IMG/VR virus record: IMGVR_UViG_3300020576_006644
Location: 1 to 64,000 of that record
Strand: one strand, 5' to 3'
From: a virus
Lineage: Duplodnaviria > Caudoviricetes
Length of the DNA stretch: 64,000 nt
How positions within the stretch are numbered: position 1 is the first letter of the stretch; each line of letters opens with the position of its first letter. The notes beneath the pieces are model-generated. The model searched no databases, was not told where the DNA came from, and saw only the letters and a list, made by a program, of their open reading frames with translations. The translations under genes were made by a program, and so were the position numbers. Below, piece after piece: positions 1,827 through 59,458 of the stretch.

Positions 1827-1848
1827 GCAATCCCGAACGTCCGTTCAG
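1827..1848. promoter_or_regulatory. 22-bp operator repeat (LexA-box-like) copy 1
   Basis: GCAATC-CCGAAC-GTCC-GTTCAG. Confidence 0.8.
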
Positions 1849-1882
1849 GCACCCCCGCCGCGCTCGCCGTACCATCGCCGCC

Positions 1883-3892
1883 ATGGCCAGTACCTTCGTC
1901 CGCGGCTACACGTCCATGCCACCCCTCGAAGAGATCGCAGCGATCGAGGGGATCACCGTCGTCGACAACACGGTCCCTGGCGGCCTTGGGGGCACACCCT
2001 CCAACTACGGCTGCCTCGTCGCTGAATTTGCCGACATGACCTACTGCCTGCGGGTGGACGCCACCGGCGCCGTGCAGCCGGACTTCCAGCCGCAGTTCGC
2101 CCTGTCGCAGTCGGACTTCGTAGACAAGTTCGGCGGCTTCGACTCCACCATCGGGGCCTTCGGCGTCTCCATGGGTAACGGCTACGTCGCCGCGGTCGGC
2201 AAGGTCTACGGCACCCAGCGCTTCCTCTGCCTGCCGGTGAACCTGTGCAGCGCCTACGCCGGCCGCATGTGGCGGCAGCTCCCCACCTGCAAGAGCGCCA
2301 CCGACCCGAGCCCGATCGTCCCGGTCGTGGCTGCCCAGGTCGACGCCGCCTACGAGTTCAAGACCGGCAGCTCCCGCATCCGCACCGGCGTCAAGAAGGT
2401 CTTCTCCGGCGCGCTGTACTACAACGCCGGGGTGGACGGGGCCGTGACCAACACCGGCACCCCCGCCGCCACCCAGAACTTCACCGCGGCCGGCGGCGAC
2501 TTCCAGGGCACCACGCTCGCCAGCCACGCCGTCACCAAGGGCGACATGCTGATCATCGGGGTGCTGAGCGGCCTGGGAGCGCTCGGCGCCAACGCCGCCA
2601 CCTACCGGGTGGTCTCCGTGACCAACGGCACCACGCTCGTGGTGGAGCTGCTCGACGGGTCGAACTTCGACTGGACCACCGGCACGGCGCTGCCCTGGCG
2701 CATCCATCCGGCGAGCGCCGGCGACACCGGCGGCAACAACCGGCTAACCGACGTGGCCGGCTACAACGTCGCCGCCCGGCCGCTGGACGCCACGGTTCTT
2801 GCCGCCACAACCGTGAGCCCCACCGTCTCGCCGCCGGCCCCGACCGCCACCTCCTGGTCGGCGCTGTCCGGGTTGCGGTTCCGCACGCACCCGAGCCAGC
2901 CGCTGACCTACACCGCGGCGGTTCAGGCCCCCAACGCCGCCAGCAGCGCGTCGATCGACGCGCTCTACCAGGCGGCACTCGACGGGATGCTCGGGGACAG
3001 CTACCCGGCCAGCGTCATCGGCGGCGTGGTCTGCGCTCGCAAGTCTTCGACGATCGCCACGGCCACCCGGCAGCACGTCCTTGAGTCCTTCGCCGGTGGA
3101 CACCCACGTCTGGCTTTTGTGGCGCCGCCGGTCAACGTCAACACCTCCGCGCAGGTGACGGCGCTCACCTATCCCGGTGTCGAGCCGCTGCGCTCCGACC
3201 GCCTGTTCTACTACTGGCCGCCGGTGCTGACGCTCCCCATCGTGGCGGCGGTCGGCACCTCGATCGCCACGGCGGACGGGATGACCACCACGGACGGCAA
3301 GCTGGACGTGGCGATGGACGAGTACGCCCTGGCCCTGTTCACGCGGCTGCCGCCCGAGGAGTCGCCCGGCAAGGCCACCGAGCCGGTGCCGAGCACCTTC
3401 GCGACCATCATCGACTACGCCCGCGGCATCCCGGTGCCGGACCTGGCGACCTACGAGCTGCTGAAGTCCCGCGGCATCGCCGGGATCAAGGTCGACTCGC
3501 CGCCGCCGCAGATCCAGAGCGCGGTGAACTCGCTTCTCCCGACGCAGGCGCTTGACCCCAAGGTCCCGCAGAACCGCCGGGTGTTTGCCGACTTCCTCAT
3601 CCGGTCACTCGCCGAGATCGCCAAGCCCTACTGCAAGGAGCTGGCGACCGACGCCGAGATCGACTCGCTGACCTCGGCGCTGGAGAGCTTCCTGACGAGC
3701 CTGGGCCCCCCGGGCTCAGGCTTCACCCCTCAGCGGATCGTGGCCTTCCGGATCACCAGGATCTCCACCCCCGCCGAGGAGGAGCTGGGCGTCTTCAAGT
3801 TCAAGATCGACGTGAAGATGATCCCCACCATGGACTACATCGTCCTTTCCATCACCGCCGGCCCGACGGTCTCCGTCGAGCAGGTCCAGTAA
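1883..3892 (+). CDS. contractile tail sheath protein
   Basis: 669 aa; N-terminal FVDKFGGF; C-terminal NRRVFADFL...IVAFRI...GVFKFKIDVKMIPTMDYIVL typical of sheath C-domains; precedes a tube-sized gene; TACCAT 7 nt before the ATG. Confidence 0.88.
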   Translation: MASTFVRGYTSMPPLEEIAAIEGITVVDNTVPGGLGGTPSNYGCLVAEFADMTYCLRVDATGAVQPDFQPQFALSQSDFVDKFGGFDSTIGAFGVSMGNGYVAAVGKVYGTQRFLCLPVNLCSAYAGRMWRQLPTCKSATDPSPIVPVVAAQVDAAYEFKTGSSRIRTGVKKVFSGALYYNAGVDGAVTNTGTPAATQNFTAAGGDFQGTTLASHAVTKGDMLIIGVLSGLGALGANAATYRVVSVTNGTTLVVELLDGSNFDWTTGTALPWRIHPASAGDTGGNNRLTDVAGYNVAARPLDATVLAATTVSPTVSPPAPTATSWSALSGLRFRTHPSQPLTYTAAVQAPNAASSASIDALYQAALDGMLGDSYPASVIGGVVCARKSSTIATATRQHVLESFAGGHPRLAFVAPPVNVNTSAQVTALTYPGVEPLRSDRLFYYWPPVLTLPIVAAVGTSIATADGMTTTDGKLDVAMDEYALALFTRLPPEESPGKATEPVPSTFATIIDYARGIPVPDLATYELLKSRGIAGIKVDSPPPQIQSAVNSLLPTQALDPKVPQNRRVFADFLIRSLAEIAKPYCKELATDAEIDSLTSALESFLTSLGPPGSGFTPQRIVAFRITRISTPAEEELGVFKFKIDVKMIPTMDYIVLSITAGPTVSVEQVQ

Positions 3893-3904
3893 GGAGACCC
3901 GCAG

Positions 3905-4345
3905 ATGGGCGCAAGGCTTATGGGGCAGGAGACCCTGGTGACGCTCACCGGGGACGGGCAGTACATCAAGGAGGTGTCGGCCATCAAGATGGCCAGCTTC
4001 ACCTTCAAGGGCGAGGCGGTGAAGTCGGACTATTTGGGCCAGCCGGGCCCGGTGTTCGACGAGGTCAACGACGGGGTGGACGGCAAGATCGACTTCGAGG
4101 TTGACGACCCGGCGTTCTTCGACTTCCTCACCCGGCTCATCCAGCGCAAGCAGGGACTGCCGGGCTTCCAGTTCAAGGTGAACATCAACACCCGGTTCAA
4201 CTTCCGCACCGGCGTCCGCCGCTTCTGCGTGGTCCCCGACGTGTCGTTCGGCGACCTGCCGCTGGAGATCCCCGAGCGCAAGCAGAAGGTCAAGAGCAGC
4301 TTGTCCTTCATGGCGCAGGGCGCTCGCTTCCCGCGCGGCGTGTAG
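3905..4345 (+). CDS. tail tube protein
   Basis: 146-aa beta-rich protein directly after the sheath; AAGGAG RBS. Confidence 0.78.
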   Translation: MGARLMGQETLVTLTGDGQYIKEVSAIKMASFTFKGEAVKSDYLGQPGPVFDEVNDGVDGKIDFEVDDPAFFDFLTRLIQRKQGLPGFQFKVNINTRFNFRTGVRRFCVVPDVSFGDLPLEIPERKQKVKSSLSFMAQGARFPRGV

Positions 4346-4351
4346 CGCTGC

Positions 4352-4373
4352 GTAATCCCGAACATCCGTTCAG
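4352..4373. promoter_or_regulatory. 22-bp operator repeat copy 2
   Basis: GTAATC-CCGAAC-ATCC-GTTCAG; 10 nt before the TAGGCT -10 of 4396. Confidence 0.75.
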
Positions 4374-4395
4374 GCAGATCGGGTAGGCTCCGCAC

Positions 4396-9230: not shown

Positions 9231-9533
9231 CTAGGGGATCACCTTGTAGCGGTGGGCCAGCTCCCGGATCTCGGGCTGCGGGTCCCGATCAGCGAGGTCT
9301 GCAAGCGCGGTACAGCCGACCGGCAAGCCGCCTGAGCAGGCCCTGGCGTAGTAGTGAGCCACGCAGACCGAGCGGTACGCGGGGAAGTCGTCACGCATCA
9401 TCTGCGCCGACAGGTTGCGGCAGCCGGCGGGGATCTTGTGCGCGGTGTCCCGGGTCGCTAGGTACAGGCCGAGACCGCCGGCGTAGCCGATGGCGACGCA
9501 GAAGAAGAGGCTGACGACCAATCCCCGCTTCAT
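9231..9533 (-). CDS. hypothetical membrane protein
   Basis: MKRGLVVSLFFCVAIGYAGGLGLYLA N-terminal TM segment; ATGA coupling. Confidence 0.55.
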   Translation of the reverse strand: MKRGLVVSLFFCVAIGYAGGLGLYLATRDTAHKIPAGCRNLSAQMMRDDFPAYRSVCVAHYYARACSGGLPVGCTALADLADRDPQPEIRELAHRYKVIP

Positions 9534-9976
9534 AAAAGCCCCCTGCGCTGCGCCCGCTGCGCCGCCTCGCGGATGGCTGGCTCGTAGGGCTTGTCGGTGC
9601 GCAGCGGCAGCCGCTCGCAGTAGTAGCCCTCGATCTCCGAGGTGAACCGGGCCGATACCGTCGAGTACTTGGCCTCGTGGAAGCCGCTCCGCGGGCAGTA
9701 CCAGAGGTCGTAGGGCAGCTCTACCATGTCCGGCAGCCCGCGGCGGCTCTCGGCCCTGAGCCGGACGCGGCCGAGGAACTTGCACAGGTCGCAGCCGGCG
9801 TGCAGGTGCTGCGGGGAGTTCGCGTCGACCTTGTCGATAGGCCGGTGGCAGCAGGGGCTGACCAGCACCATGCGCTGCACCTCCCCCTCGCACGGGGACA
9901 GGCAGCCGGGGCACAGCCAGGCACCGCCGGGTAACTCCTCCTCGGGCTGGAACCGCTTGTCGTAGGGCTGGGTCAC
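9530..9976 (-). CDS. Cys-rich hypothetical protein (start uncertain)
   Basis: 3' part of the 9530-11050 ORF; the rest of that ORF is antisense to 10187-11296. Confidence 0.45.
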   Translation of the reverse strand: MTQPYDKRFQPEEELPGGAWLCPGCLSPCEGEVQRMVLVSPCCHRPIDKVDANSPQHLHAGCDLCKFLGRVRLRAESRRGLPDMVELPYDLWYCPRSGFHEAKYSTVSARFTSEIEGYYCERLPLRTDKPYEPAIREAAQRAQRRGLL

Positions 9977-10142
9977 GACGTAGCGACCGTGCTGCGATTC
10001 ATTAGCAGCTTCTGGGGTGTAAGCAGGCACTTCAACCACGCCGAAGCTGCCCAGGACAACGGCCACTTCACTTCGGCTTTTAAGGGGATCGGTAAAATTG
10101 ACCAGTTCATCCCCCACCTCTACAGCCCGATCGTCCCGGGCA

Positions 10143-10164
10143 GCAATCCCTGACGTTTGTTCAG
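10143..10164. promoter_or_regulatory. 22-bp operator repeat copy 3
   Basis: GCAATC-CCTGAC-GTTT-GTTCAG; 10 nt before the TATCCT -10. Confidence 0.8.
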
Positions 10165-10186
10165 TGCGACCGGCTATCCTGCCGGC

Positions 10187-11296: not shown

Positions 11297-11318
11297 CACG
11301 ATCTGCATGTTGCCGGCA

Positions 11319-11530
11319 ATGCTGTATACACAGCAGACGATCTGTTTATCGGCAAGTATCCGACCGGCTTAGTGTACGCAAACAAGCGCGTAGAGGTAGC
11401 AGGAGATTACAAGCGCTTGGCGTACCTGAACTATCGTACGCTGGCGCTAGAGGTAGACAAAGGCTGTCCTAAAGAGTTCCTAGCGCTCATCCAAGCGGAC
11501 CATGCGCGCATGCTGGCGCTCAAACACACG
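11319..11530 (+). pseudogene. possible frameshifted small gene
   Basis: Protein-like DDLFIGKYPTGLVYANKRVEVAGDYKRLAYLNYRTL has no in-frame ATG; ATG 11319 would join it if 2 nt of TATACACAG were removed. Confidence 0.3.
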
Positions 11531-11567
11531 TTAGGTCCGTTTCACGTTCTATTACCTTTCTCTGCTC

Positions 11568-11705
11568 CTAGTACGCTACAGGCTGCAGTACACCGCCGTC
11601 TACTTTCGCATAAAGGACCTTTGAACCGTTGCGGAATACGCGCCAGTAATACCGGCAACCTCCTTGCCGACCGATGTATATAAGGCGCATCTTTTGCTTA
11701 GCCAC
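11568..11705 (-). CDS. 45-aa hypothetical protein
   Basis: GTG start MAKQKMRLIYIGRQ..., GAGGA RBS; below the ORF-track cutoff. Confidence 0.45.
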   Translation of the reverse strand: MAKQKMRLIYIGRQGGCRYYWRVFRNGSKVLYAKVDGGVLQPVAY

Positions 11706-11707
11706 GG

Positions 11708-11884
11708 CTATTCCTCGCTATCTTCCGCGTCAGGATCGCCGATACCTTCAACCATGGCAGGATCGGGCTGCCGCAGCGGTCTGCCATCCTTGCCTAGCAG
11801 CACGGCAAAGCAATTGCCGCTGTGCTTGCCTGCGCGCTTGTCCTTAGCGCTGCCGTACTCTAGATAGAAGCTATATCCTTTCAC
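11708..11884 (-). CDS. 58-aa protein ending GDPDAEDSEE
   Basis: GTGA-coupled to 11881-12081; last 33 nt are 31/33 identical to the end of 16239-16856. Confidence 0.6.
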   Translation of the reverse strand: MKGYSFYLEYGSAKDKRAGKHSGNCFAVLLGKDGRPLRQPDPAMVEGIGDPDAEDSEE

Positions 11885-12081
11885 TGTCCACCGCCTTTTC
11901 CGTCGTAAATAACGACCTCGGAATCATCAAAGCGCTTTGTCGCAAGGATGATGCCAGATTTACCGGCTACGGAAAATAGCTTGCCTGTTTTCGTACCGTA
12001 GTCCAGAGCGGCCTGCAATGTGTCGAAATGGCTAGCAGGAAAGCTGCGCAGAGCATCGTTTGCATATGTGGTGAATTTCAC
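11881..12081 (-). CDS. hypothetical protein
   Basis: 66 aa, coupled to both neighbours. Confidence 0.55.
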   Translation of the reverse strand: MKFTTYANDALRSFPASHFDTLQAALDYGTKTGKLFSVAGKSGIILATKRFDDSEVVIYDGKGGGQ

Positions 12082-12206
12082 CGCTCACCGCCTTTTTGCA
12101 GGATGCAAGGCAAGTCAGCCTGCGGCCAAGTTTCGCGCATACCGTAGCAGAGCAAGCCTGTCACTACAAGGTACAGCAGCACGTTTAGGATCGTCTCTAT
12201 TCGCAT
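12078..12206 (-). CDS. 42-aa membrane peptide
   Basis: MRIETILNVLLYLVVTGLLCYG...; GTGA coupling. Confidence 0.4.
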   Translation of the reverse strand: MRIETILNVLLYLVVTGLLCYGMRETWPQADLPCILQKGGER

Positions 12207-12271
12207 GAGGTCGGCAGCCTGCCTGTCAAAGCGGCTGCCGGATACTTCTACTACCGGACGCTGTCTAGGAG

Positions 12272-12757
12272 CTACTTCGGAATAGCGCGGATATGGTGGC
12301 TGATACCAGCCAGCTTAACCGTAACGCTAGCCTTGCTCGGCTCTGCGGTGTACTGTAGTCCGACAGACTCCGCCACGATGGCGCTCGATTCCGCGCTGTC
12401 GACGATGCTGTCAAGCTCCGCCTTGATCTTCGCTCGCTCCGCGGCCAGATTGGCGGTCATCTCGGCGAGCTCGCTGTCGACCTCGATAAGCCGGACCATG
12501 AGCCTGGCCTGGCCTTTGGTGGCGACGATCGGCGGCTTGAGCGCCGGCAAACCGTTGGCAGTGCAAAAAGCGTAGGCGTCTGCGCTGGCCGGCGACTGCT
12601 TCTTGACTGACAGCTTGCAGAGCCGCTCCGCCAGCTTGACCGCGTCGGCTCTGATCAGATCGATCGTGTCCGCTGGCGCCGGCATATCGGCAGCCTTGCG
12701 GACGGTGAAAGACTGCGCAGGCTTCTTGGTGGCGGTGGCGCTTACTTTGGTTGCCAT
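12272..12757 (-). CDS. hypothetical protein
   Basis: 161 aa, AAAGGAG RBS. Confidence 0.7.
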   Translation of the reverse strand: MATKVSATATKKPAQSFTVRKAADMPAPADTIDLIRADAVKLAERLCKLSVKKQSPASADAYAFCTANGLPALKPPIVATKGQARLMVRLIEVDSELAEMTANLAAERAKIKAELDSIVDSAESSAIVAESVGLQYTAEPSKASVTVKLAGISHHIRAIPK

Positions 12758-13386
12758 GGTCGGATCTCCTTTTTTACGTGCGCTGGTATCTGGTCAGACT
12801 GCATGCAAACCGTCTGCCAATTGACGTGACAGGCGGTCGGATTGTGCGGCGGCTTGGCCACGGTACAGCCGTAACAAACCTCGCTGAATTTTGGACCGTC
12901 CGCAGCGGTGAGCTCCTGCAGCGGCTCAACCTCAAGGTAGGTCGCCGGAGGATCTGGAAAAATCCATTCACCGCGGAAGTCTGTTGCTCGCTTGTGCAGC
13001 GCTCGCATTTTGGCGCCGCCGATCGTGAGGTCGGCCGACTTGATCACGCCAGTTAGCTTTACAAAGCCGACCAAGCGGTAAGACCAAGCCGAGGTGTAGA
13101 CAGACCACGCGCGGTAGTAGCTGGCTTGCTCACCGTCTAGCTTGACCGCCTTTTTCTTGTCGGCTTGCTCGCTGTAGGCGCCGAACCATTCGTAATGTTG
13201 CTCGGTCTCCGAGCTATAGGCCTTGCTGGCGAAGATCGCTACGGCGCCGCGATAACTGGTAAAGCACCGACTGCCGCGACACTCAACCGACTTGAACACG
13301 CGCGAACCGTCGCGCAACTTCAAGCCTTGAACCATGCTTGCAGCGTGCTGGCTCTTATCAATGAGCGCAGGAATGATGATGCTCAC
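12742..13386 (-). CDS. hypothetical protein
   Basis: GTG start coupled to the upstream TGA. Confidence 0.6.
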   Translation of the reverse strand: MSIIIPALIDKSQHAASMVQGLKLRDGSRVFKSVECRGSRCFTSYRGAVAIFASKAYSSETEQHYEWFGAYSEQADKKKAVKLDGEQASYYRAWSVYTSAWSYRLVGFVKLTGVIKSADLTIGGAKMRALHKRATDFRGEWIFPDPPATYLEVEPLQELTAADGPKFSEVCYGCTVAKPPHNPTACHVNWQTVCMQSDQIPAHVKKEIRPWQPK

Positions 13387-13766
13387 TTCGGCACCTTGCT
13401 TTCCTTCCACTCACCAGTGACAGGATCGCGCCAGAGGCTGGCGCAGTCTTCCACGGCGCCAAAGTACTGCCAATCCTCGCTGTCACTGGCGTTTATCACG
13501 CTGTGGATCAACAGGATCGCGGTGTGCTCGCCTTTACCATAGCAATCGCGGATGAGCGGATACAGCGCCGTGACTGGCCGATCTTTGCCGTACTCGTCCG
13601 GATTGCTGTAGGTCACTCGGACAAAGCGAGCGGACTTACTCGGCTCATCCATCGTGAAGCGGTGACACCACACACCGCTTACGCGCTTGCACATGGCCGC
13701 CAGATTGGCAAGTCCGACCATGCGCACGCGCGAGTCAGATTGAGTCTTAGGAGTGGTCACAGCCAT
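13383..13766 (-). CDS. hypothetical protein
   Basis: 127 aa, AAGGAG RBS. Confidence 0.6.
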   Translation of the reverse strand: MAVTTPKTQSDSRVRMVGLANLAAMCKRVSGVWCHRFTMDEPSKSARFVRVTYSNPDEYGKDRPVTALYPLIRDCYGKGEHTAILLIHSVINASDSEDWQYFGAVEDCASLWRDPVTGEWKESKVPK

Positions 13767-14284
13767 ACTCCTTTGATGCTGTAACCTGCACGGTACTTAG
13801 TGAGGCTCTCATCTCTGGCCGCGCGCCTGGCGTCGCCGCAAGTGTGCAAGTGGTGTTTGTACTCCTTGCAGCCGACGCAAGCCGAGCGAGCGGCATTCTC
13901 TGCAGCGTTGAGCGCGTCAAGCCGCTTGCGAGCTCGCTTGATCGTGGCGGTCGGCGCGTCTTTCGTGCTGCAGCCATGCAGACAGTAGCTCAGATGATGG
14001 CCGATCTCAAAGGCACGATCGGTGCCGATACCGGCGCCTTTCACCGTCCAGTAGCCGTCAACGTCCTTGCAAGGCCAGTCAAGCGCGGCGGCGACGCGCG
14101 ACGTGATACAGAGCATGTCTTCTTTCGTGTGAAAGAAGACGCGCGCATACCATGTCATGTTGGTACGCGAAATTTTCTTGACCTGGACGTATACTTTCGC
14201 GCCAGGCTTGATCAGCTTGCGCAGGTACTCGATCGCTTCCTTGCGCTCGCCTTCAGTCTTTTTGTTTCGCATGATTTTATTCAT
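13757..14284 (-). CDS. conserved phage hypothetical protein
   Basis: LRKLIKPGAKVY..SRTNM..VKGAGIGTDRAFEIGHHLS resembles a family of small phage early proteins; GGAGG RBS. Confidence 0.65.
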   Translation of the reverse strand: MNKIMRNKKTEGERKEAIEYLRKLIKPGAKVYVQVKKISRTNMTWYARVFFHTKEDMLCITSRVAAALDWPCKDVDGYWTVKGAGIGTDRAFEIGHHLSYCLHGCSTKDAPTATIKRARKRLDALNAAENAARSACVGCKEYKHHLHTCGDARRAARDESLTKYRAGYSIKGVWL

Positions 14285-14510
14285 CCTCCGGTTGTAACGC
14301 CATGTCTTCTCTGATCTTGATCAACTTCGCAAACTCAGCCAGATTATCATCAATAAGATCGCAGATTTTGGAGTATTTTTCTGCGGCAACGATCTTGTGC
14401 GCTAGAGGACACAGTACGTTCGCGTACTGCACTTCAAGGTGTTTATTGGCATCTTTCACGTTGTCGTGAATTACGCCGTCGAATGTCTCGATCTTTGTTA
14501 CTTGTCGCAT
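14277..14510 (-). CDS. hypothetical protein, first gene of the leftward sigma54 unit
   Basis: ATG 14 nt after the -12 GC. Confidence 0.6.
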   Translation of the reverse strand: MRQVTKIETFDGVIHDNVKDANKHLEVQYANVLCPLAHKIVAAEKYSKICDLIDDNLAEFAKLIKIREDMALQPEDE

Positions 14511-14523
14511 GTCTAAACAACCT

Positions 14524-14540
14524 AGCATCCACCATGCCAA
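14524..14540 (-). promoter_or_regulatory. sigma54 (-24/-12) promoter, leftward
   Basis: TTGGCATGGTGGATGCT = GG-N10-GC. Confidence 0.7.
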
Positions 14541-14600
14541 GCGCCGGCTATGGATCGCGTGCGCGCGTACCTATAGAAAACGCCAGCACGGCAAACCTAG

Positions 14601-14728
14601 ATCCTCAGTTTTCTGAGACTACTGAACGCAGTTTCAGCTACATAACTTCCGAGTGTAAAAGTTGGCACAGTATTTGACCAGCGACACGATTCTAGGAAAC
14701 TGAGACCACGTATCAGAAAACTGTGGAT
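14601..14728. repeat. inverted repeat pair (15/16) in the divergent promoter region
   Basis: ATCCTCAGTTTTCTGA (14601-14616) and TCAGAAAACTGTGGAT (14713-14728). Confidence 0.7.
14622..14637 (-). promoter_or_regulatory. LexA-box-like palindrome
   Basis: Minus strand CTGAAA-CTGC-GTTCAG; lacks the GCAAT flank. Confidence 0.45.
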
Positions 14729-14767
14729 TAGTTGCTCTGTGTACAGGCTGCACCGACGTGCGGCAAC

Positions 14768-14784
14768 TTGGCACGGTAGATGCT
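14768..14784 (+). promoter_or_regulatory. sigma54 (-24/-12) promoter, rightward
   Basis: TTGGCACGGTAGATGCT = GG-N10-GC; ATG 14 nt after the GC, mirroring the leftward promoter. Confidence 0.72.
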
Positions 14785-14797
14785 ATGTTAGTTTGGC

Positions 14798-15613
14798 ATG
14801 TCTACTAGAAAAACGATCGTGGAAGCGTTCGCGAACCTGACTTGGTGTCTGGCGTGGTCTGACCATGTAGAGGAACACGGTTGTTACAACCTGTCAGGCT
14901 GCAAGATCGAAGAACATGCGCCAGAGCTACCTAAACAGGCTTTGCCGCTGGCTGAGACGGCGCTTGCCAAGGTCGAGCAACGGCTAGCGAGCGACAGCAC
15001 TTTCCAGCATGCCGCGCAAGAGGCTAAAAAGTGGCTGAAAGAGCACAGCGAACCGGCAGACCATGCCGCTATTCTGGCGGAGTGCGAAGCGTCCAATCTC
15101 TGCGCGGCGCTCCTAGTCGCTGCTAAGGCGGACGCCGAAAAGGATCAAGATTCGGTCTCAGCTGAGTTTGAGGAACCGACTGTAGAAGCAATCAACCTGT
15201 ACGACGATCCTGATTATGCCAAGCGTTTTGGCGACTGCCTAGGCTTCCAGCTTCCTGGCCACGGCGTAGCGTGGTCCGACGATCACGCAGAAATACCGCT
15301 TCCAGACATGTACGACTGCACCGCAGCGGATGAACTGCGTTACATAGCGGACAATTGCCGCGCGTTTAATCTGGCCAATATCGAGCGGTTCCGCTGCAAT
15401 GCAAGCTGGCAAGCGGTGCAGTGCTGGCGGACCGATCGCGGATGGATGTACGACGGTCCGGCTAGCTGCGGACCTAAGGACGTGCGGACATCTGGCCGCG
15501 GACCTAGCTGGTCAGGCTTAGTCTCGTCTGCTTTTGTCGCTGCACTGCTTCGCAAGTTGCGCGATCGGCGCGTCAACATTCAGAGGATCGAGCTCACACC
15601 GCGCGACAAGTAG
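14798..15613 (+). CDS. hypothetical protein
   Basis: 271-aa ORF after the sigma54 promoter. Confidence 0.7.
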   Translation: MSTRKTIVEAFANLTWCLAWSDHVEEHGCYNLSGCKIEEHAPELPKQALPLAETALAKVEQRLASDSTFQHAAQEAKKWLKEHSEPADHAAILAECEASNLCAALLVAAKADAEKDQDSVSAEFEEPTVEAINLYDDPDYAKRFGDCLGFQLPGHGVAWSDDHAEIPLPDMYDCTAADELRYIADNCRAFNLANIERFRCNASWQAVQCWRTDRGWMYDGPASCGPKDVRTSGRGPSWSGLVSSAFVAALLRKLRDRRVNIQRIELTPRDK

Positions 15614-15614
15614 C

Positions 15615-15631
15615 CTGGCACTCACCTTGCA
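15615..15631 (+). promoter_or_regulatory. sigma54 promoter
   Basis: CTGGCACTCACCTTGCA, near-consensus TGGCAC-N5-TTGCA, intergenic. Confidence 0.75.
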
Positions 15632-15643
15632 AGGATGCAGATC

Positions 15644-16057: not shown

Positions 16058-16242
16058 TGGCTCAGCAATCAGGATACGTACCGTGCGCTTGCCGTGACTG
16101 CATGGAAATTGCAATCGCGGACCGTTCAAAGCTGGCCTACTGCCATGATTGCGAGTCGGCCGGCTGTCCAGACTATCAAGGTCAGCCTGGCATGTCGCAA
16201 GAGTGCCAAGCGCCAGGCGCTTATGGAGGCGACGAATCATGA
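16057..16242 (+). CDS. small Zn-finger-like protein
   Basis: CACRDC...CHDC; TAATG coupling. Confidence 0.6.
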   Translation: MAQQSGYVPCACRDCMEIAIADRSKLAYCHDCESAGCPDYQGQPGMSQECQAPGAYGGDES

Positions 16243-16856: not shown

Positions 16857-16858
16857 GT

Positions 16859-24988: not shown

Positions 24989-25010
24989 GCAATCCCGAAC
25001 GTCCGTTCAG
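24989..25010. promoter_or_regulatory. 22-bp operator repeat copy 5
   Basis: GCAATC-CCGAAC-GTCC-GTTCAG (identical to copy 1). Confidence 0.8.
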
Positions 25011-25034
25011 CGGTTGCGGTAGGATGGTCGGCAG

Positions 25035-27370: not shown

Positions 27371-27392
27371 GCAATCCTGAACGTGCGCTCAG
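27371..27392. promoter_or_regulatory. 22-bp operator repeat copy 6
   Basis: GCAATC-CTGAAC-GTGC-GCTCAG. Confidence 0.78.
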
Positions 27393-27419
27393 TGGGCCGC
27401 CGGGGCTATCCTCCGGGGT

Positions 27420-29748: not shown

Positions 29749-29770
29749 GCAATCCCGAACATTCGTTCAG
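29749..29770. promoter_or_regulatory. 22-bp operator repeat copy 7
   Basis: GCAATC-CCGAAC-ATTC-GTTCAG. Confidence 0.8.
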
Positions 29771-32936: not shown

Positions 32937-32958
32937 GCAATCCCTGACGTTTGTTCAG
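32937..32958. promoter_or_regulatory. 22-bp operator repeat copy 8
   Basis: GCAATC-CCTGAC-GTTT-GTTCAG; contains the TGA of 32955-33623. Confidence 0.8.
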
Positions 32959-36558: not shown

Positions 36559-36580
36559 GCAATACCAGACGTTTGTTCAG
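36559..36580. promoter_or_regulatory. 22-bp operator repeat copy 9
   Basis: GCAATA-CCAGAC-GTTT-GTTCAG; contains the TGA of 36577-37074. Confidence 0.78.
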
Positions 36581-41027: not shown

Positions 41028-41079
41028 TTGAAAAAATTACATTCACATTGAAAACCAATGCAAGCAAAAAGGGAGAAAA

Positions 41080-44197: not shown

Positions 44198-44219
44198 GCA
44201 ATCCTGGACGTTCGTTCAG
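44198..44219. promoter_or_regulatory. 22-bp operator repeat copy 10
   Basis: GCAATC-CTGGAC-GTTC-GTTCAG; contains the TGA of the polymerase gene. Confidence 0.8.
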
Positions 44220-47269: not shown

Positions 47270-48547
47270 CTACCGCCGCCCGGCCAGCGCCGCCGCCTGC
47301 GCCTCGCGCCGCGCCCGCACCTTGACAACCGAGGCCTCGATCACCTCGGGCAGCTCCCCGAGCCCGAAGAACAGGTCCAGCTGCGGGATGGCGACCCCGC
47401 GGAGGCCGGCGCGCTCATGGATCTTGGCCATCCACTGCACCGCCGCGACCACCCCCTCGTCGGTCCGCAGGTTGACCCCCGGCGCCGGCGGGTTGCCCGG
47501 CTTGAACTTGGGGTCCTTGGCGTACTCCTCGACGAGCGGGTAGCCGTAGTAGAGGCGGATGTGCGCCGAGTCGAGGAACTGAGCGTCGCTGGGATTGCGC
47601 TTGCTGTCGAGAGGGTGGATGTCGACCGGCATCGGCGGGTTGCTCAGCAGGTCCACCATTTCGTCGAGCGCATCCCCGGTCGGCTCCACGCGCTGCTCGG
47701 GCTGCTGCACCGCGGTGGCCGGTGGCTTGACCTGCACGATCGAGGCCTTGGGCAGCTCGTCGATCTTCCCGCTGAGCGCCGCCATGTCAGCCTGGAACGC
47801 CGCGGTAGCCACCGGGTCCGGGGTCGTCGGCTGCGCCGGGAGCATGCCCGCCTTGGCGAGAGCCGCCTGCCCCACCGCCTTGACATACGCTTCTTCTGGG
47901 GACAGCTGCTGCGCCGCCTGCTTGACCGCTGCAGCCGCAGCCTCATCCGCCGCGATCTGCTCCCGGGTGCGCCGCTTGCGCTTGGGCTGCTCGGGCTGCG
48001 CTTGCGCCACCGGCACGCCGGCGATGGTGGCCGGCTTGGGCTCGCTGAGGAGCGGGTCGCTGCTGGTCGGCTGCGGCTCGTTCTTGAACGGTGAAGTCGG
48101 CCCCTTGTCGTCCAGCGGGCGCAGCTCGGCGGCCTGCGCGCCCGTCACCTGCTCGCCGATCTGGAGCAGGACGTTCTGCACGATGGAAAAGGCGTCCGGG
48201 TCACCAGGGTTCAGCAGCTCGGGAACCTCGATGTCCAGCTTCCCGGCGATGCTGAGGATGTCTCCCGACAGGTCGCGGACCCGCTTGCGGAGCGTCTCCT
48301 CGCGCTGACTGGTCGGCTGCCCGCAATCCTGCCCCGCACCCAGCAGCGATTGGTCGAACTCAACCTGCAGACCACCGCCGAGGAGATCGACGAGCATCGC
48401 CACCAGGGACGTTCCGTTGCCCCCGCCGATGATCTCGACCGCCATACCGTCAACGTGCTGCCGCCACTTGAGCCGGGTCTCCAGCTGGCCACCGGCCACC
48501 AGCTTGGTGAGAATAAAGCCCCCATCGGGGTGAAGAGTAATCGCCAT
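47270..48547 (-). CDS. hypothetical protein
   Basis: 425 aa, AGGAGG RBS, KRKRRTREQIAADEA low-complexity segment. Confidence 0.7.
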   Translation of the reverse strand: MAITLHPDGGFILTKLVAGGQLETRLKWRQHVDGMAVEIIGGGNGTSLVAMLVDLLGGGLQVEFDQSLLGAGQDCGQPTSQREETLRKRVRDLSGDILSIAGKLDIEVPELLNPGDPDAFSIVQNVLLQIGEQVTGAQAAELRPLDDKGPTSPFKNEPQPTSSDPLLSEPKPATIAGVPVAQAQPEQPKRKRRTREQIAADEAAAAAVKQAAQQLSPEEAYVKAVGQAALAKAGMLPAQPTTPDPVATAAFQADMAALSGKIDELPKASIVQVKPPATAVQQPEQRVEPTGDALDEMVDLLSNPPMPVDIHPLDSKRNPSDAQFLDSAHIRLYYGYPLVEEYAKDPKFKPGNPPAPGVNLRTDEGVVAAVQWMAKIHERAGLRGVAIPQLDLFFGLGELPEVIEASVVKVRARREAQAAALAGRR

Positions 48548-48601: not shown

Positions 48602-48623
48602 GCAATCCCTGACGTTTGTTCAG
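48602..48623. promoter_or_regulatory. 22-bp operator repeat copy 11
   Basis: GCAATC-CCTGAC-GTTT-GTTCAG; contains the TGA of the primase gene. Confidence 0.8.
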
Positions 48624-53683: not shown

Positions 53684-55153
53684 TTATCTGGAAAACAGCT
53701 CGCAGTTGTCGCAGTTCCCGCAGGGCTTTCCGGCCTCCTCGCTGAAGTAGGAGCGCAGGAGCTGCGAGCGGCACCTTCGGGAGCGCAGGAACTCGTCGAG
53801 CTGCCGCAGGAGCCCGAGCTGCCGCTCCTTGCTCTGCTCGAACTTGTCCTCGGTAAACCCGTACCTCTCGGAGTACCTGTTCTGGGTGAGGTCCTTCCCC
53901 GAGGTGATGAGCCACTTGCGGGTCCGGTAGTCCTTCCCCGAGTCGTACAGCGCCACGGCCACCGACGGCTTGCCATCCCGGCCCCCGCGCCCGGCCATCT
54001 GGTAGAAGTCCTCGATGCTCTTGGGCAGCCCGTGCATGACGACCACTCGCACGTCGCTCCGGTCCACCCCCATCCCGAAGGCGCAGGTGGCCACCACCAC
54101 GTCGAGCTTCTTGCCGAAGAACAGCTCCTCGACCTCCCGCCGCTGACCCTTGCCCGTCATCCCGGCGTGGTAGTGTCGCGCCTCCCGGCCCTGCCGACGC
54201 AGGTAGTCGGCGATGTCCTCAGCATCCTGGCGCCGGAGCGTGTAGACGATCCCCGCCCCGCCGGCCGCAAGGTGCTTGTCGAGCAGGTTCCGAACCGCGA
54301 TGATCTTGCTGCCCCCCTCGCAAGCGCGGACGCGGTAGCTGAGGTTTGGGCGGTCGCAGGACAGTCGGATCACCCGCGCGTTGCGCATCCTGAAGCGCTC
54401 GCGGATGTCTTCGACGGTGTCCTCTGTGGCGCTCGCCGTCATGGCGATCCACTGCGTCTGCATTCCGATGTTGCGCCGGTCGAGCAGGTCGCGGGCGAAG
54501 CGATAGGCCGGACGGTACGATAACCCGGCCTCATGCCCAGCAACGTGGCACTCATCCAGAGCGACGAGCCACGGGGGGTTCGCTCGAAGTTGCGCGGCAA
54601 AGCGCGGGTCGTCGAAGCGCTCCGGCGCCGCGTAGATGAGGGAAGCCCCCGGCATGGCGGCAATGGCGACAGTCAGCTCTCCTGGGGTGTACTGCGAGGT
54701 GATGGCGATTGCCGGGATGCCACGGTCTAGCGCCTGCGTCACCTGATCCCGCATGAGCGAGATGAGCGGGGACATCACCAAAACTGGCCTGTCCACCCGC
54801 ATCACCGATGGCACCTGGAAGCAGGCCGTCTTGCCAAACGATGTGGGCGCTATGCCTACAATGTCCTCACCCGCCACCACGGCGTCGATGATCTGCTGCT
54901 GCCCCGGCCGGAACCGGGGGAAGCCCCACACACTGCGCAGCGCCGACAGCGGATCGGAGAACGGTCCCGGCTTTGGCGGCAGCTCCAGCGAGAAAACCGG
55001 CTCCGCTGGTGGCGCTGCCGCCGCTTTCTTGGCCTTCGGTGCCTTGACCGCCAAGCCCGACCCGCCGCAGGCCGGGCAGCTCGCCATGAGCAGGGGGTTC
55101 CCCGCACACTGGAGGCATTTTTTGCGGGAGGCTGCTGGCTTGGTGGCGGTCAC
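53684..55153 (-). CDS. recQ: RecQ-family helicase
   Basis: FRPGQ, PTSFGKT, SPLISLMRDQ, DECH, MTASA, DRPNL, ATCAFGMGVD, QMAGRGGRDG, CR..L..YF..CGNCDNC. Confidence 0.92.
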   Translation of the reverse strand: MTATKPAASRKKCLQCAGNPLLMASCPACGGSGLAVKAPKAKKAAAAPPAEPVFSLELPPKPGPFSDPLSALRSVWGFPRFRPGQQQIIDAVVAGEDIVGIAPTSFGKTACFQVPSVMRVDRPVLVMSPLISLMRDQVTQALDRGIPAIAITSQYTPGELTVAIAAMPGASLIYAAPERFDDPRFAAQLRANPPWLVALDECHVAGHEAGLSYRPAYRFARDLLDRRNIGMQTQWIAMTASATEDTVEDIRERFRMRNARVIRLSCDRPNLSYRVRACEGGSKIIAVRNLLDKHLAAGGAGIVYTLRRQDAEDIADYLRRQGREARHYHAGMTGKGQRREVEELFFGKKLDVVVATCAFGMGVDRSDVRVVVMHGLPKSIEDFYQMAGRGGRDGKPSVAVALYDSGKDYRTRKWLITSGKDLTQNRYSERYGFTEDKFEQSKERQLGLLRQLDEFLRSRRCRSQLLRSYFSEEAGKPCGNCDNCELFSR

Positions 55154-55454: not shown

Positions 55455-55476
55455 GCAAGCCGGGACGTTTGTTCAG
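55455..55476. promoter_or_regulatory. 22-bp operator repeat copy 12
   Basis: GCAAGC-CGGGAC-GTTT-GTTCAG; abuts the stop of 55477-55878. Confidence 0.7.
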
Positions 55477-56980: not shown

Positions 56981-56984
56981 CGGG

Positions 56985-57958: not shown

Positions 57959-58197
57959 GAGTTCGGCACTTCCGGCGCGTCAGCCCTCCGGGACGGCACC
58001 ACGCGCAGCCGCAGCTTGCACGGGCCGCCATGCGCTCCAGCTGGTATCGACATGTTGACGAACCCGTGGTAGCGGCGGAACTTCCACCAGTGCAGCCAGC
58101 GGCCGAGCTGCCACCACCGCGGCTCCCAGACCTGGACCCGCTGCGGACCCGACCCGGTGAGCAGCTCTACACCGTCCCAATCGGTTTTCTTGGTCAC
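57955..58197 (-). CDS. hypothetical protein
   Basis: GTGA/ATGA coupling. Confidence 0.45.
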   Translation of the reverse strand: MTKKTDWDGVELLTGSGPQRVQVWEPRWWQLGRWLHWWKFRRYHGFVNMSIPAGAHGGPCKLRLRVVPSRRADAPEVPNS

Positions 58198-58724
58198 TTC
58201 CAATCCTCCGGCGGCGGAACGGGACCAAACCACGGCCCGCTGACATCTTCCACGGACCGCACGACACCGCCATGCAGGAAGACGAGTCGGTTGCTGGACG
58301 GGGCAACCTCCCAAAGCCGGTGCTGCCGCCAGTACCAGCCCGCTTCGGTCGGCACCTCGACGCGCGGGTAGAGCGGCTTCTCATACTGCACCACGACCTT
58401 GGGCACCTCCCCGGTCAGCTTCTTCTCGACCCGATCGAGCGCCTCCATGAACGTGGCGATGGCACCGGGATTACGGAAAGCCAGCACCACGAGAGGACTG
58501 TGCGAGGAGGTTGCTTCTCGGGGTACTAGTTTGCCGGGCTCTCCTGGTTCGCGGAGCGGGACCAGCTCAACACCTGGAATCTGCGGCGCGTTCTCCGGGT
58601 CGAGCGGGTCCTTGCACCAGCAGTTACCGACGCGAACCATCCGGTCGCCAAGGATGACGACAACCCCGACGAGATCACCGCCGTCCTCCTTACCGCCGAC
58701 GAAGAAAGTGGGCGGAACGGTCAC
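58194..58724 (-). CDS. hypothetical protein
   Basis: 176 aa, PTEAGWYW motif. Confidence 0.55.
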   Translation of the reverse strand: MTVPPTFFVGGKEDGGDLVGVVVILGDRMVRVGNCWCKDPLDPENAPQIPGVELVPLREPGEPGKLVPREATSSHSPLVVLAFRNPGAIATFMEALDRVEKKLTGEVPKVVVQYEKPLYPRVEVPTEAGWYWRQHRLWEVAPSSNRLVFLHGGVVRSVEDVSGPWFGPVPPPEDWK

Positions 58725-59071
58725 GACGACTTCCTTTTTATGGCGGTTATTCCGCGACCAACAGGCACGCCGCGAAGCTGCGCAGAGAAGCCGGCCATCA
58801 GACGGTCAACCGAGGCGTCCGCTTCTTCTGCAATCTTGTTGAGCCCAGCGTCGTCCGCCACGTCCTTGTAATCCCGCTCCAGCTTCTTGAGAGGAACGCT
58901 GCGGCGGACATTGACGCGGCCGACGCGCCGCAGCCGCACCACATCCCCCTTACGGCTGGTGTCCAGGGCGTAGACGTACCAGACGAGCCCTTGCAGGTCT
59001 TCCTTGTACTTACCCAAATGCTTCTGGGCCGCCGGGTCCTTGGCGAGCCACGCCGGGCTAGAGCTTTCCAT
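58721..59071 (-). CDS. hypothetical protein
   Basis: 116 aa, AGGAG RBS. Confidence 0.55.
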   Translation of the reverse strand: MESSSPAWLAKDPAAQKHLGKYKEDLQGLVWYVYALDTSRKGDVVRLRRVGRVNVRRSVPLKKLERDYKDVADDAGLNKIAEEADASVDRLMAGFSAQLRGVPVGRGITAIKRKSS

Positions 59072-59390
59072 CGCGAATCTCCTGGGCGAGCTGGGCCTGC
59101 AGCATCATCTCGATGGCGCTGAAGTCGGTCTCCATGACGACCTTCCCCACAAAGCGGTCGACGCCCGGATCGAACCCAGGAACGAAGAGGCCGCCCTTGA
59201 GGCGGAGTTGGTCGATCGGTAGGTACTGACGGACCACGGCCTCCTTGGTCGTGAACCGGCTCGCCAGCGCCGCCCGCACCCGGGCAGCGATTGCCGGGTC
59301 CTGGTAGGCGACCCAATACGTGGTTCCCACGAACAGCTCGACCGCGCCGGGCCGACAGAGCGTCCCGACCGGATAGTGCATCACCTGCAT
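59058..59390 (-). CDS. hypothetical protein
   Basis: 110 aa, AGGAGG RBS, downstream of operator copy 13. Confidence 0.6.
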   Translation of the reverse strand: MQVMHYPVGTLCRPGAVELFVGTTYWVAYQDPAIAARVRAALASRFTTKEAVVRQYLPIDQLRLKGGLFVPGFDPGVDRFVGKVVMETDFSAIEMMLQAQLAQEIRDGKL

Positions 59391-59436
59391 GGTTTGTCCC
59401 TCCTGGGGAAGATCTGCTCAGATCACGGTCGGGCTG

Positions 59437-59458
59437 GCAATACTGGACGTTCGGTCAG
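59437..59458. promoter_or_regulatory. 22-bp operator repeat copy 13
   Basis: GCAATA-CTGGAC-GTTC-GGTCAG; contains the TGA of 59455-59991. Confidence 0.75.

What the first reader, a model, noticed from the sequence alone, without database searches (positions are those of the whole stretch)
1827..59458. Thirteen co-oriented 22-bp operators resembling the myxobacterial LexA box
The consensus GCAATC-CYGRAC-RTBY-GTTCAG occurs at 1827, 4352, 10143, 21591, 24989, 27371, 29749, 32937, 36559, 44198, 48602, 55455 and 59437. All copies share one orientation and lie at gene boundaries; half-sites occur near 22436-22451 and 60056-60066. The 16-bp core is an imperfect CTGAAC-N4-GTTCAG palindrome. All 13 spacers fit the RYBY of the M. 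xanthus LexA consensus CTRHAMRYBYGTTCAGS (recalled from the literature), though the left half-sites deviate. On the - strand the box ends 2 bp before TTGC (TTAC in copy 2), a likely -35 for leftward genes. In 7 cases it also lies 1-21 nt upstream of a + strand -10. Inference: most transcription units are wired directly to the host SOS repressor, or to a phage LexA-like protein, rather than to one repressor switch.
Basis: partly seen in the sequence, partly recalled or inferred. Interest (0 to 1): 0.85.

Follow-up and report, generated by a model that had tools for sequence, protein, structure and literature searches.

The report
SOS-box operators fused to phage promoters
An uncultured 113-kb phage carries about 27 copies of a myxobacterial-type LexA (SOS) operator welded to its promoters and encodes its own cleavage-proof LexA look-alike, so much of its gene expression seems to run on borrowed SOS-repressor specificity.

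Summary
In detail: all 13 copies sit at the stated coordinates, against 0 expected by chance. The window is the first 64 kb of a complete 112.6-kb phage genome with terminal repeats. That genome has about 14 more copies, on both strands. Orientation follows the neighbouring gene and is not a genome-wide polarity.

The 22-mer is a composite. A 16-bp imperfect palindrome lies 2 bp from a TTGC -35 ("A-type" promoter, box centre about -46.5, often leaderless). At 9-10 sites the same box also covers the -35 region of an opposite, leaderless "B-type" promoter for virion genes.

The boxes closely resemble real lexA-promoter boxes of Myxococcota. A matrix built only from those host boxes finds 12 phage hits, against 0-2 in shuffled sequence.

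Outside the window the phage encodes a 184-aa protein with a LexA DNA-binding domain. Its recognition helix (RSTNGVNDH) is identical to that of Myxococcus LexA, and it has no S24 peptidase. It lies beside a double-ended box.

The closest precedent is GIL01 gp6 with host LexA. Which protein binds, and whether it activates or represses, is untested. Unchecked notes of this scan report similar boxes next to -35 elements in other putative myxophage DNA.

The parts
1827..1848 (-). Box 1 (GCAATC + CCGAAC-GTCC-GTTCAG). The A-type promoter faces the leftward ORF 1383-1781. The B-type -10 TACCAT (1870-1875) precedes a leaderless ATG at 1883.
4352..4373 (-). Box 2, the GTAATC variant (TTAC). It is the only copy with no leftward gene. 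The B-type -10 TAGGCT (4384-4389) precedes a leaderless ATG at 4396.
10143..10164 (-). Box 3. The A-type promoter serves the leftward operon starting at 9530-10066. The B-type -10 TATCCT (10175-10180) precedes ATG 10187.
21591..21612 (-). Box 4. The A-type promoter serves the leftward gene 19826-21544 (phrog_1735). The B-type -10 TATCCT lies 1 nt after the box, the same spacing as in host lexA promoters, and precedes ATG 21627.
24989..25010 (-). Box 5. The A-type promoter serves 24718-24942. The B-type -10 TAGGAT (25020-25025) precedes ATG 25035 (baseplate wedge, Baseplate_J).
27371..27392 (-). Box 6. The A-type promoter serves the leaderless gene 26915-27337 (ATG 33 nt after GATTGC). The B-type -10 TATCCT (27407-27412) precedes ATG 27420.
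29749..29770 (-). Box 7. The A-type promoter serves 29035-29724/29715. The B-type -10 TAGGAT (29781-29786) precedes ATG 29794.
32937..32958 (-). Box 8, A-type only, serving 32156-32860. The box contains the stop codon of the upstream leftward gene 32955-33623.
36559..36580 (-). Box 9, A-type only, serving 35475-36419. It overlaps the stop of 36577-37074.
44198..44219 (-). Box 10, A-type only (-10 TAGGTA), serving 43518-44150. It overlaps the stop of the PolA/UDG gene 44216-47020. The box differs by 1 nt from a Myxococcota lexA box (L074).
48602..48623 (-). Box 11, A-type only (-10 TAGGGA), serving 47270-48547 and the downstream PolA operon.
55455..55476 (-). Box 12 (GCAAGC variant), A-type, upstream of the RecQ-like helicase gene 53684-55153.
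59437..59458 (-). Box 13, A-type, serving 59058-59390.
22436..22457 (+). Degenerate copy in the opposite orientation (AAAAAC-ATAC-GTTCAG-TATTTA), pointing at the rightward gene at 22554/22614-23171. It resembles the copy at genome position 79596.
60052..60066 (-). Remnant half-site CGTTCGGTCAGG, identical to the distal half of box 13, about 65 nt upstream of the leftward ORF 59455-59991.

Best explanation
The 22-mer is a composite promoter-operator cassette. A 16-bp imperfect palindrome of the Myxococcota SOS-box type acts as an operator for a dimer of a LexA-family winged helix-turn-helix protein. One half is strongly conserved (GTTCAG) and the other is degenerate. The box is fused 2 bp from a TTGC -35 element, the same -35 type as in host lexA promoters.

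The box appears in two geometries. In A-type promoters the order is box, GA, TTGCnn, an 18-nt spacer, a weak TAnnnn -10, and often an ATG 6-8 nt later. The box centre is then near -46.5 at invariant spacing. These promoters drive early or middle genes: the PolA operon, RecQ, helicases, an RNA ligase, Dam, a DnaJ-kinase and the LexA-like gene itself. In B-type promoters, on the other side of the same box, a strong TAGGAT/TATCCT -10 with no -35 lies 1-21 nt (mostly 10 nt) beyond GTTCAG. A leaderless ATG follows 6-9 nt later. The box then covers about -38 to -23. These promoters drive virion genes.

Inferred mechanism. The phage's own truncated LexA homologue (N-terminal HTH, LexA wHTH, helical hairpin, no S24 peptidase) has the Myxococcus LexA recognition helix and occupies these boxes. 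It stimulates A-type promoters in a class-II-like manner, as GIL01 gp6 does at -43.5, and occludes B-type promoters. Host LexA should recognise the same boxes, at least at the start of infection.

Shown: the sites, the two geometries, their conservation in relatives, the likeness to host boxes, the protein's domain and its helix identity. Inferred: who binds in vivo, and the sign of regulation.
For: - Sites: 13 copies in the window with 0 expected. About 27 copies genome-wide, with orientation tied to the flanking gene.
- A-type geometry: positions 1-22 are highly conserved, a TA signal sits at positions 43-44, and ATG follows 33 nt after GATTGC in about 10 sites.
- B-type geometry: TAnnnT then ATG 6-9 nt later at 9-10 sites. 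These genes include the baseplate wedge and portal. A-type genes include RecQ, PolA and others.
- Host comparison: 28 of 31 Myxococcota lexA upstream regions have a GTTCAG box arranged as TTGCGY/TTGACA, box, 1 nt, TAnnnT, leaderless ATG. Examples are CTGGACGTTTGTTCAGG and CTGTACGTTTGTTCAGG. A matrix from the host boxes gives 12 phage hits against 0-2 in shuffles, and 10 of the 12 lie on the phage boxes. The published consensus with up to 1 mismatch gives 11 hits against 0.
- Phage protein P0001: PF01726 at 33.7 bits (cut-off 23.7), PDB LexA DNA-binding domain at E 1e-4, and the top 9 Foldseek hits are all LexA at 1.6-2.2 A. No S24 domain is found in the genome. The helix RSTNGVNDH is identical to Myxococcus LexA and differs in five other phyla or classes sampled.
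- Autoregulation: the gene sits on a double-ended box that serves two back-to-back A-type promoters.
- Conservation: the box, -35, spacer and -10 are conserved in relatives while upstream flanks diverge.
- Precedent: GIL01 gp6, PMC6182141.
Against: - No binding or expression data exist.
- No site fits the published M. xanthus consensus perfectly, and 8 of 13 window sites have G where that consensus has H.
- The host is not identified. No cultured relative and no prophage copy were found.
- A centre at -46.5 is 3-5 bp further upstream than typical class II activators.
- The fixed 2-bp spacing could reflect copying of one cassette and not a functional constraint.
- If the uncleavable phage protein represses B-type late promoters, something else must relieve that repression, and it is unidentified.
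- In relatives the LexA-like gene diverges to 60% identity while the boxes stay the same. This neither supports nor excludes the phage protein as the binder.
Confidence: 0.55

Rival explanations
1. Host LexA alone is the functional binder. The boxes would make about 27 phage promoters SOS-dependent, repressed until RecA-stimulated LexA cleavage. The phage LexA-like protein would have another job, for example holding the host SOS regulon shut.
For: The boxes match real Myxococcota lexA boxes and share their polarity. B-type promoters have the box over the -35 region, and copy 4 has exactly the host lexA spacing. Two unrelated complete IMG/VR phages without any PF01726 gene each carry one identical composite site with ATG 33 nt downstream. 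GIL01 uses host LexA in this way (PMC6182141).
Against: The phage has no integrase and no S24 repressor and looks virulent, so blanket repression by a host protein is hard to rationalise. At A-type promoters the box lies upstream of the -35 at a fixed distance, a poor position for steric repression. The phage keeps a DNA-binding domain with the same helix on a double-ended box, conserved in all relatives seen. The single sites in unrelated phages are at about the frequency expected by chance (my estimate).
Confidence: 0.25
2. The palindrome is read by another factor, either a different phage regulator or a host protein, and its likeness to SOS boxes is convergent. The cassette would simply be this phage family's own promoter class.
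For: There is no perfect match to the published consensus. Few canonical sigma-70-type promoters are recognisable elsewhere in the intergenic DNA, so this is the main recognisable promoter class. Other HTH genes exist in the phage group, for example an HTH_31 protein in L009 and L012.
Against: An independent host-derived matrix recovers the sites. The only LexA-domain gene in the genome sits on the strongest, double-ended site and carries the matching recognition helix. No sigma-70 region 2 was found. No phage-type RNA polymerase was found either, but that search's control was uninformative.
Confidence: 0.1
3. The element acts at the RNA or DNA level and not as an operator. It could be a hairpin terminator or processing site at gene ends, or a replication, packaging or recombination signal, which would explain the one-strand bias in the window.
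For: In 5 window copies the box contains the stop codon of the upstream leftward gene. All 13 window copies lie on one strand.
Against: The strand bias vanishes genome-wide and follows gene direction. The two halves do not covary: the distal half is fixed while the proximal half varies without compensation, and no U-tract follows. The adjacent -35, -10 and start codons are at fixed distances.
Confidence: 0.03

Closest known systems
Bacillus thuringiensis phage GIL01: host LexA (with gp7) plus gp6, a phage-encoded truncated LexA homologue (PMC6182141, PMC4551915)
   Same: The phage promoters carry LexA-type boxes. The phage encodes a LexA DNA-binding-domain-only protein. gp6 binds a palindrome centred at -43.5, next to or over the -35, and activates transcription. 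The interplay of host LexA and its phage homologue times late genes.
   Different: GIL01 is a 15-kb temperate tectivirus with three promoters, whereas this is a 113-kb phage with terminal repeats, about 27 sites and no integrase. The gp6 site (GaCACAC-GTGTGaC) differs from the host SOS box. Here the box is of the host SOS type and the recognition helix is identical to host-type LexA. This protein also has an extra N-terminal HTH and a C-terminal helical hairpin. Here one box serves two opposite promoter geometries.
Myxococcus xanthus / Myxococcota SOS box and self-repressed lexA promoter (CTRHAMRYBYGTTCAGS; PMC9705874)
   Same: Both have a conserved GTTCAG half, a degenerate other half, the ACGT-rich centre, TTGC/TTGA -35 elements, TAnnnT -10 elements and leaderless starts. 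Box polarity relative to B-type promoters equals that in lexA promoters.
   Different: In host lexA promoters the box fills the spacer between -35 and -10 (centre about -21.5). In the phage it is centred at about -46.5 (A-type) or about -30.5 (B-type). M. xanthus has only about 5 directly LexA-repressed genes in 9 Mb, whereas the phage has about 27 boxes in 0.11 Mb.
Lambda OR2 (CI represses PR and activates PRM from one operator)
   Same: One dimer site lies between divergent promoters, near -42 to -46 for one and over the -35 region of the other. This suggests one bound protein could favour one direction and block the other.
   Different: There is no sequence or family relationship. Lambda has a single control region, not a genome-wide cassette. 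The function here is inferred only.
Stoperators of cluster A mycobacteriophages (L5 gp71 sites)
   Same: Many copies of one short site are spread through a phage genome, at gene boundaries, with orientation tied to the direction of transcription.
   Different: Stoperators are asymmetric 13-bp sites inside transcription units that block elongation. Here the sites are palindromic and fused to promoter elements.

Membership tests
LexA operator (SOS box), Myxococcota type | Sequence fits the consensus CTRHAMRYBYGTTCAGS | tested here: inconclusive
   Of 25 sites, 0 are perfect, 9 have 1 mismatch, 11 have 2 and 5 have 3-4. Genome-wide, hits with up to 1 mismatch number 11 against 0 in shuffles. Natural Myxococcota lexA boxes also break the published consensus, for example CTGGAC....
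LexA operator (SOS box), Myxococcota type | Resembles boxes actually found in lexA promoters of the clade, scored with a matrix built independently of the phage | tested here: met
   A matrix from 28 lexA-upstream boxes gives 12 phage hits against 0-2 in 10 Markov shuffles, and 10 of the 12 lie on the phage boxes. Caveat: the host boxes were collected by requiring GTTCAG.
LexA operator (SOS box), Myxococcota type | Overlaps core promoter elements so that bound LexA blocks RNA polymerase | tested here: inconclusive
   This is met for B-type promoters, where the box covers about -38 to -23. It is not met for A-type promoters, where the box covers about -54 to -39, upstream of the -35.
LexA operator (SOS box), Myxococcota type | Bound by LexA, with DNA-damage-inducible expression | not testable with these tools
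   This needs EMSA or ChIP and expression data. The host is unknown.
LexA repressor family (protein P0001, genome 75362-75916, minus strand) | N-terminal LexA winged-HTH DNA-binding domain | tested here: met
   PF01726 scores 33.7 bits against a cut-off of 23.7. PDB LexA DNA-binding domain matches at E 1.4e-4. The AF2 model's top 9 Foldseek hits are all LexA at rmsd 1.6-2.2 A. The helix RSTNGVNDH equals that of Myxococcus LexA.
LexA repressor family (protein P0001, genome 75362-75916, minus strand) | C-terminal S24 peptidase/dimerisation domain with a self-cleavage site | tested here: not met
   There is no PF00717 hit anywhere in the genome. Only about 50 residues follow the wHTH, and they are predicted as a helical hairpin. 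The protein is therefore a truncated LexA homologue, not a LexA repressor.
GIL01 gp6-type activator | Truncated LexA homologue encoded by a phage | tested here: met
GIL01 gp6-type activator | Palindromic site overlapping the -35 (centre -43.5), class II activation | tested here: inconclusive
   The centre is about -46.5 and the box abuts the -35 (2 bp away) at invariant spacing in 25 of 25 sites. Activation itself was not tested.
GIL01 gp6-type activator | Sequence relationship to gp6 or betatectivirus context | tested here: not met
   tblastn of P0001 against 50,697 phage records gives no match at E up to 1e-3. The genome is a 113-kb tailed phage.
Phage single-subunit RNA polymerase promoter | Phage encodes a T7-type RNA polymerase, and promoters are co-oriented with genes | tested here: inconclusive
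   There is no PF00940 hit, but the control genomes were silent too. The sites carry ordinary -35/-10 elements.

The most novel reading that the evidence does not exclude
A virulent-type myxophage times its whole programme by SOS-operator mimicry. Host LexA, present at injection, keeps the leaderless late (B-type) promoters shut. It is later removed, either by cleavage triggered by replication-generated RecA filaments or by titration onto about 27 boxes on each replicating genome. Meanwhile the phage's uncleavable LexA look-alike activates early and middle (A-type) promoters from -46.5 and holds the host SOS regulon closed.
Probability: 0.15. Interest if true: 0.85.

Novelty: new variant of a known kind. 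Interest (0 to 1): 0.65.

Why it matters
If correct, this is the second known case, after GIL01 gp6, of a phage-encoded truncated LexA acting on phage promoters. It would be the first case where the phage copy keeps the host repressor's recognition helix. It would also be the first where one SOS-type box is built genome-wide into two fixed promoter geometries (early/middle and late).

It offers a directly testable system for three questions: how LexA-family domains can activate as well as repress, how a phage might uncouple itself from or exploit the host SOS response, and how promoters and leaderless genes are organised in Myxococcota and their phages. It also gives a sequence signature (box, GA, TTGC) for finding related phages and predicting Myxococcota hosts in metagenomes.

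Tried and rejected
- Close relatives or a host via DNA or protein similarity. There is no DNA match in 50,697 phage records. P0001 has no tblastn match there. PolA reaches at most 26% identity to cultured phages. No LexA-like relatives were found in IMG/VR or GTDB genomes by pattern plus tblastn.
- The 22-mer in bacterial genomes gave 45 scattered hits across unrelated phyla. By my estimate that is about the chance level, so it gives no host clue.
- Host inference from the phage MFS/PTR2 transporter gave at most 39% identity in 101 Myxococcota genomes, which is not diagnostic.
- Cluster look-ups for taxonomy returned no organism names.
- ECF-sigma or phage-sigma promoter reading: the spacing does not fit, and no sigma-70 region 2 is present in the genome.
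- T7-type RNA polymerase promoter reading: no PF00940 hit, but the control was uninformative.
- Terminator or RNA hairpin reading: no covariation and no U-tract.
- Temperate lifestyle with a CI/LexA-type cleavable repressor: no tyrosine integrase and no S24 domain.
- The idea that GATTGC is a separate site for the protein's extra N-terminal HTH is not needed. GATTGC occurs on whichever side has an A-type promoter, and on both sides at the double-ended site. TTGC is also the -35 type of host lexA promoters. The idea is not excluded.
- Two extra host-matrix hits (14621 minus strand, genome 94980 plus strand) lie in a shared repeat of about 97 bp and are probably not operators.

Full report
**Observation**

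All are on the + strand, and none appeared in 100 shuffles. The window is the first 64 kb of a single-contig 112,623-bp virus record. IMG/VR classes it as having direct terminal repeats, and CheckV estimates it 100% complete. GC content is 65%. Its genes include two Baseplate_J proteins, a PolA fused to a UDG-like domain and an SbcC-like ATPase.

A matrix built from the 13 copies finds about 14 more between 64 and 112 kb, on both strands. The co-orientation is therefore a property of the window, not of the genome.

**Anatomy**

I called genes by codon statistics and related each site to its neighbours. Read as CTGAAC-N4-GTYCRG-GATTGC, nearly every copy points at a gene that starts 31-76 nt beyond GATTGC.

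In the window those genes are leftward, which is why all copies there sit on the + strand. Beyond 64 kb many of the genes are rightward, and the motif flips with them.

An alignment of 25 sites gives the following:
- Positions 1-22 are strongly conserved, and T19 and T20 are invariant.
- The interval that follows shows little conservation.
- A TA signal appears at positions 43-44.

This amounts to TTGCnn, an 18-nt spacer and a weak -10. In about 10 sites an ATG lies 33 nt after GATTGC, which is 6-8 nt after that hexamer, so these genes are leaderless. I call this the A-type promoter. The box covers about -54 to -39, centred near -46.5, always 2 bp from the -35.

On the other side of the box, 9-10 sites have a good TAnnnT hexamer (TAGGAT, TATCCT, TAGGCT or TACCAT). 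It lies 1, 9, 10, 10, 10, 10, 10, 14 or 21 nt after GTTCAG, and an ATG follows 6-9 nt later. I call this the B-type promoter. It is leaderless, has no -35, and the box covers roughly -38 to -23. By my estimate the chance of such a -10 plus ATG pairing is below 1% per site.

The two classes drive different genes:
- B-type genes are virion genes, including the baseplate wedge and a weak portal match.
- A-type genes are early or middle functions: a RecQ-like helicase, the PolA operon, a second helicase, an RNA ligase, a Dam methylase and a DnaJ-kinase.

Box 2 (4352) is the only copy with no leftward gene, and it is the one with TTAC in place of TTGC. The site at genome 75949-75976 has GATTGC on both sides and serves two back-to-back A-type promoters.

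About 36 of about 85 gene starts that have an upstream gap or a divergent neighbour carry a box. Few other intergenic sigma-70-like promoters are recognisable.

**What the box resembles**

In that organism only lexA, recA2 and pafBC-cyaA are directly repressed by LexA (PMC9705874).

I used the lexA promoter oligonucleotide from that paper to fetch a Myxococcus lexA locus. I then sampled 101 genomes of its phylum with the phage wHTH as query.

Twenty-eight of 31 lexA upstream regions contain a GTTCAG box in a stereotyped promoter. The order is TTGCGY or TTGACA, the 16-bp box, 1 nt, TAnnnT, then an ATG 6-12 nt later.

Several points follow:
- TTGC -35 elements, TAGGnT-like -10 elements and leaderless starts are host-typical features.
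- Some host boxes, such as CTGGACGTTTGTTCAGG and CTGTACGTTTGTTCAGG, are within 1-2 nt of phage boxes.
- A matrix built only from the 28 host boxes gives 12 hits in the phage against 0-2 in Markov shuffles. Ten of the 12 coincide with the phage boxes.
- Against the published consensus no phage site is perfect: 9 have 1 mismatch and 11 have 2. Genome-wide, hits with up to 1 mismatch number 11 against 0 in shuffles.
- The better match is always in the orientation with GTTCAG distal to GCAATC. This is the same polarity, relative to B-type promoters, as in host lexA promoters.
- The two halves do not covary and no U-tract follows, which argues against an RNA hairpin.

**The phage's own LexA-like protein**

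I tested that lead.

Genome 75362-75916 on the minus strand encodes a 184-aa protein, P0001. The evidence for its domain is:
- It matches LexA_DNA_bind above the curated cut-off.
- It matches solved LexA DNA-binding domains.
- Its AF2 model (pLDDT 73) has an N-terminal three-helix HTH, a wHTH at residues 73-133 and a C-terminal helical hairpin.
- The nine best Foldseek hits are all LexA, at 1.6-2.2 A.

It is the only PF01726 match in the genome, and the genome has no S24 peptidase.

Its recognition helix, RSTNGVNDH, is identical to that of Myxococcus LexA. All 30 sampled Myxococcota LexAs carry [RK]STNGV[NSA]DH. LexAs from Actinobacteriota, Acidobacteriota, Chloroflexota, Krumholzibacteriia and a gammaproteobacterium have different helices. 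One of the two Acidobacteriota sequences, L106, comes from the unpublished genome G107. The point also stands on L098 alone.

The same helix occurs in more than 100 metagenomic LexA or DNA-binding-domain-only representatives of unknown taxonomy. A Myxococcota host is therefore inferred, not shown.

**Relatives**

Homologues of P0001 (50-96% identity) occur only in metagenomes. Their contigs (L007-L013) carry the same cassette. The double-ended site upstream of the LexA-like gene and the site at its 3' end are identical, and there are further copies.

Alignments of orthologous intergenic regions show that the box, -35, spacer, -10 and start are conserved while the upstream flanks are unalignable.

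In L009 the neighbouring genes are 90-99% identical to this phage, but the LexA-like protein is only 60% identical, with an identical C-terminal 45 residues.

**Mechanism**

The palindrome, its asymmetry and its match to host boxes identify it with good confidence as an operator for a LexA-family dimer. Both the host-type LexA and the phage protein should recognise it.

Geometry suggests opposite effects on the two promoter classes:
- At B-type promoters the box sits on the -35 region with variable spacing, as expected for steric repression.
- At A-type promoters it abuts the -35 at an invariant 2 bp and the -10 is weak, as expected for an activator contact. This is close to GIL01 gp6, a truncated LexA homologue that activates from a palindrome centred at -43.5 (PMC6182141).

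The phage has no tyrosine integrase, no S24 repressor and no sigma factor. That makes a lambda-like or GIL01-like lysogenic switch unlikely.

I therefore favour a reading in which the phage's uncleavable LexA look-alike is the main reader of a genome-wide early/late switch (confidence 0.55). Host LexA alone is the main rival (0.25). Who binds, and with what sign, is inference.

**Comparison and novelty**

This is not a member of the LexA repressor family proper, because the S24 domain is absent. It has no detectable sequence relationship to gp6-type phages in the cultured collection.

It works most like the GIL01 LexA/gp6 system but differs in four ways:
- scale, with about 27 sites;
- use of the host-type box by the phage protein;
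- the dual A/B geometry;
- the protein's extra domains.

I rate it a new variant of a known kind.

Unchecked notes of this scan describe the same regulon from overlapping windows of this genome (e1-5843343, e1-5843333). They also describe CTGAAC-N4-GTTCAG boxes next to -35 elements or in arrays in other putative myxophage DNA (e1-5853437, e1-3420616, e1-5686840). I did not test the latter.

Noticed in passing
window 14561-14727 (minus strand) and genome 94920-95086 (L002:10920-11086, plus strand): A repeat of about 97 bp, roughly 95% identical, is shared by the two low-GC islands. It contains CTGAA-N7-TTCAG and TCTCAG-AAAA-CTGAGG hairpins. It produced two false 'SOS box' hits with the host matrix. 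It may be a structured RNA or a regulatory element of the islands.
   Followed up: partly
genome 75362-75916 (L001:11362-11916) compared with L009:10001-10606: The LexA-like gene is a mosaic hot-spot. Neighbouring genes are 90-99% identical between this phage and L009, yet this protein is only 60% identical. Its last ~45 residues and the flanking boxes are identical.
   Followed up: partly
L004:1666-1723 and L005:1786-1842: Two unrelated, complete IMG/VR phages (46.7 kb and 37 kb, GC 68-69%) have no LexA_DNA_bind gene. Each carries a single box-GGGATTGC composite with an ATG 33 nt downstream. The count is near chance, but the arrangement looks like an A-type promoter.
   Followed up: partly
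L067-L096 (Myxococcota lexA loci): lexA promoters across sampled Myxococcota are stereotyped: aaaTGTTGCGY or TTGACA, a 16-bp box ending in GTTCAG, 1 nt, TAnnnT, and an ATG 6-12 nt later, so lexA is often leaderless. Two box flavours occur, CTGxAC-GTTT-GTTCAG and xTACAC-AGGT-GTTCAG.
   Followed up: partly
window 44216-47020 (minus strand): The DNA polymerase A gene carries an N-terminal uracil-DNA-glycosylase-superfamily domain (weak Pfam match, just below cut-off).
   Followed up: no
genome 71131-72519 (L001:7131-8519, minus strand): The phage encodes a 462-aa MFS/PTR2-type transporter, conserved in relatives L009 and L012. The best Myxococcota match is only 39% identical. This is unusual cargo for a phage.
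   Followed up: partly
genome 100508-101359 (L002:16508-17359, minus strand): A 283-aa protein with a phosphopantetheine-attachment (carrier protein) domain lies divergent from the portal-like gene, 216 bp from box 101576.
   Followed up: no
genome 64862-65920 (L001:862-1920, plus strand): A DnaJ domain fused to a protein-kinase-like domain lies directly behind the A-type box at 64807 and is leaderless.
   Followed up: no
window 11300-17000 and 40000-41200: These stretches have lower GC (54-60%) and contain no boxes. Earlier notes of the scan call the first one a GGG/CCC-free island. Its genes must use another promoter class.
   Followed up: no
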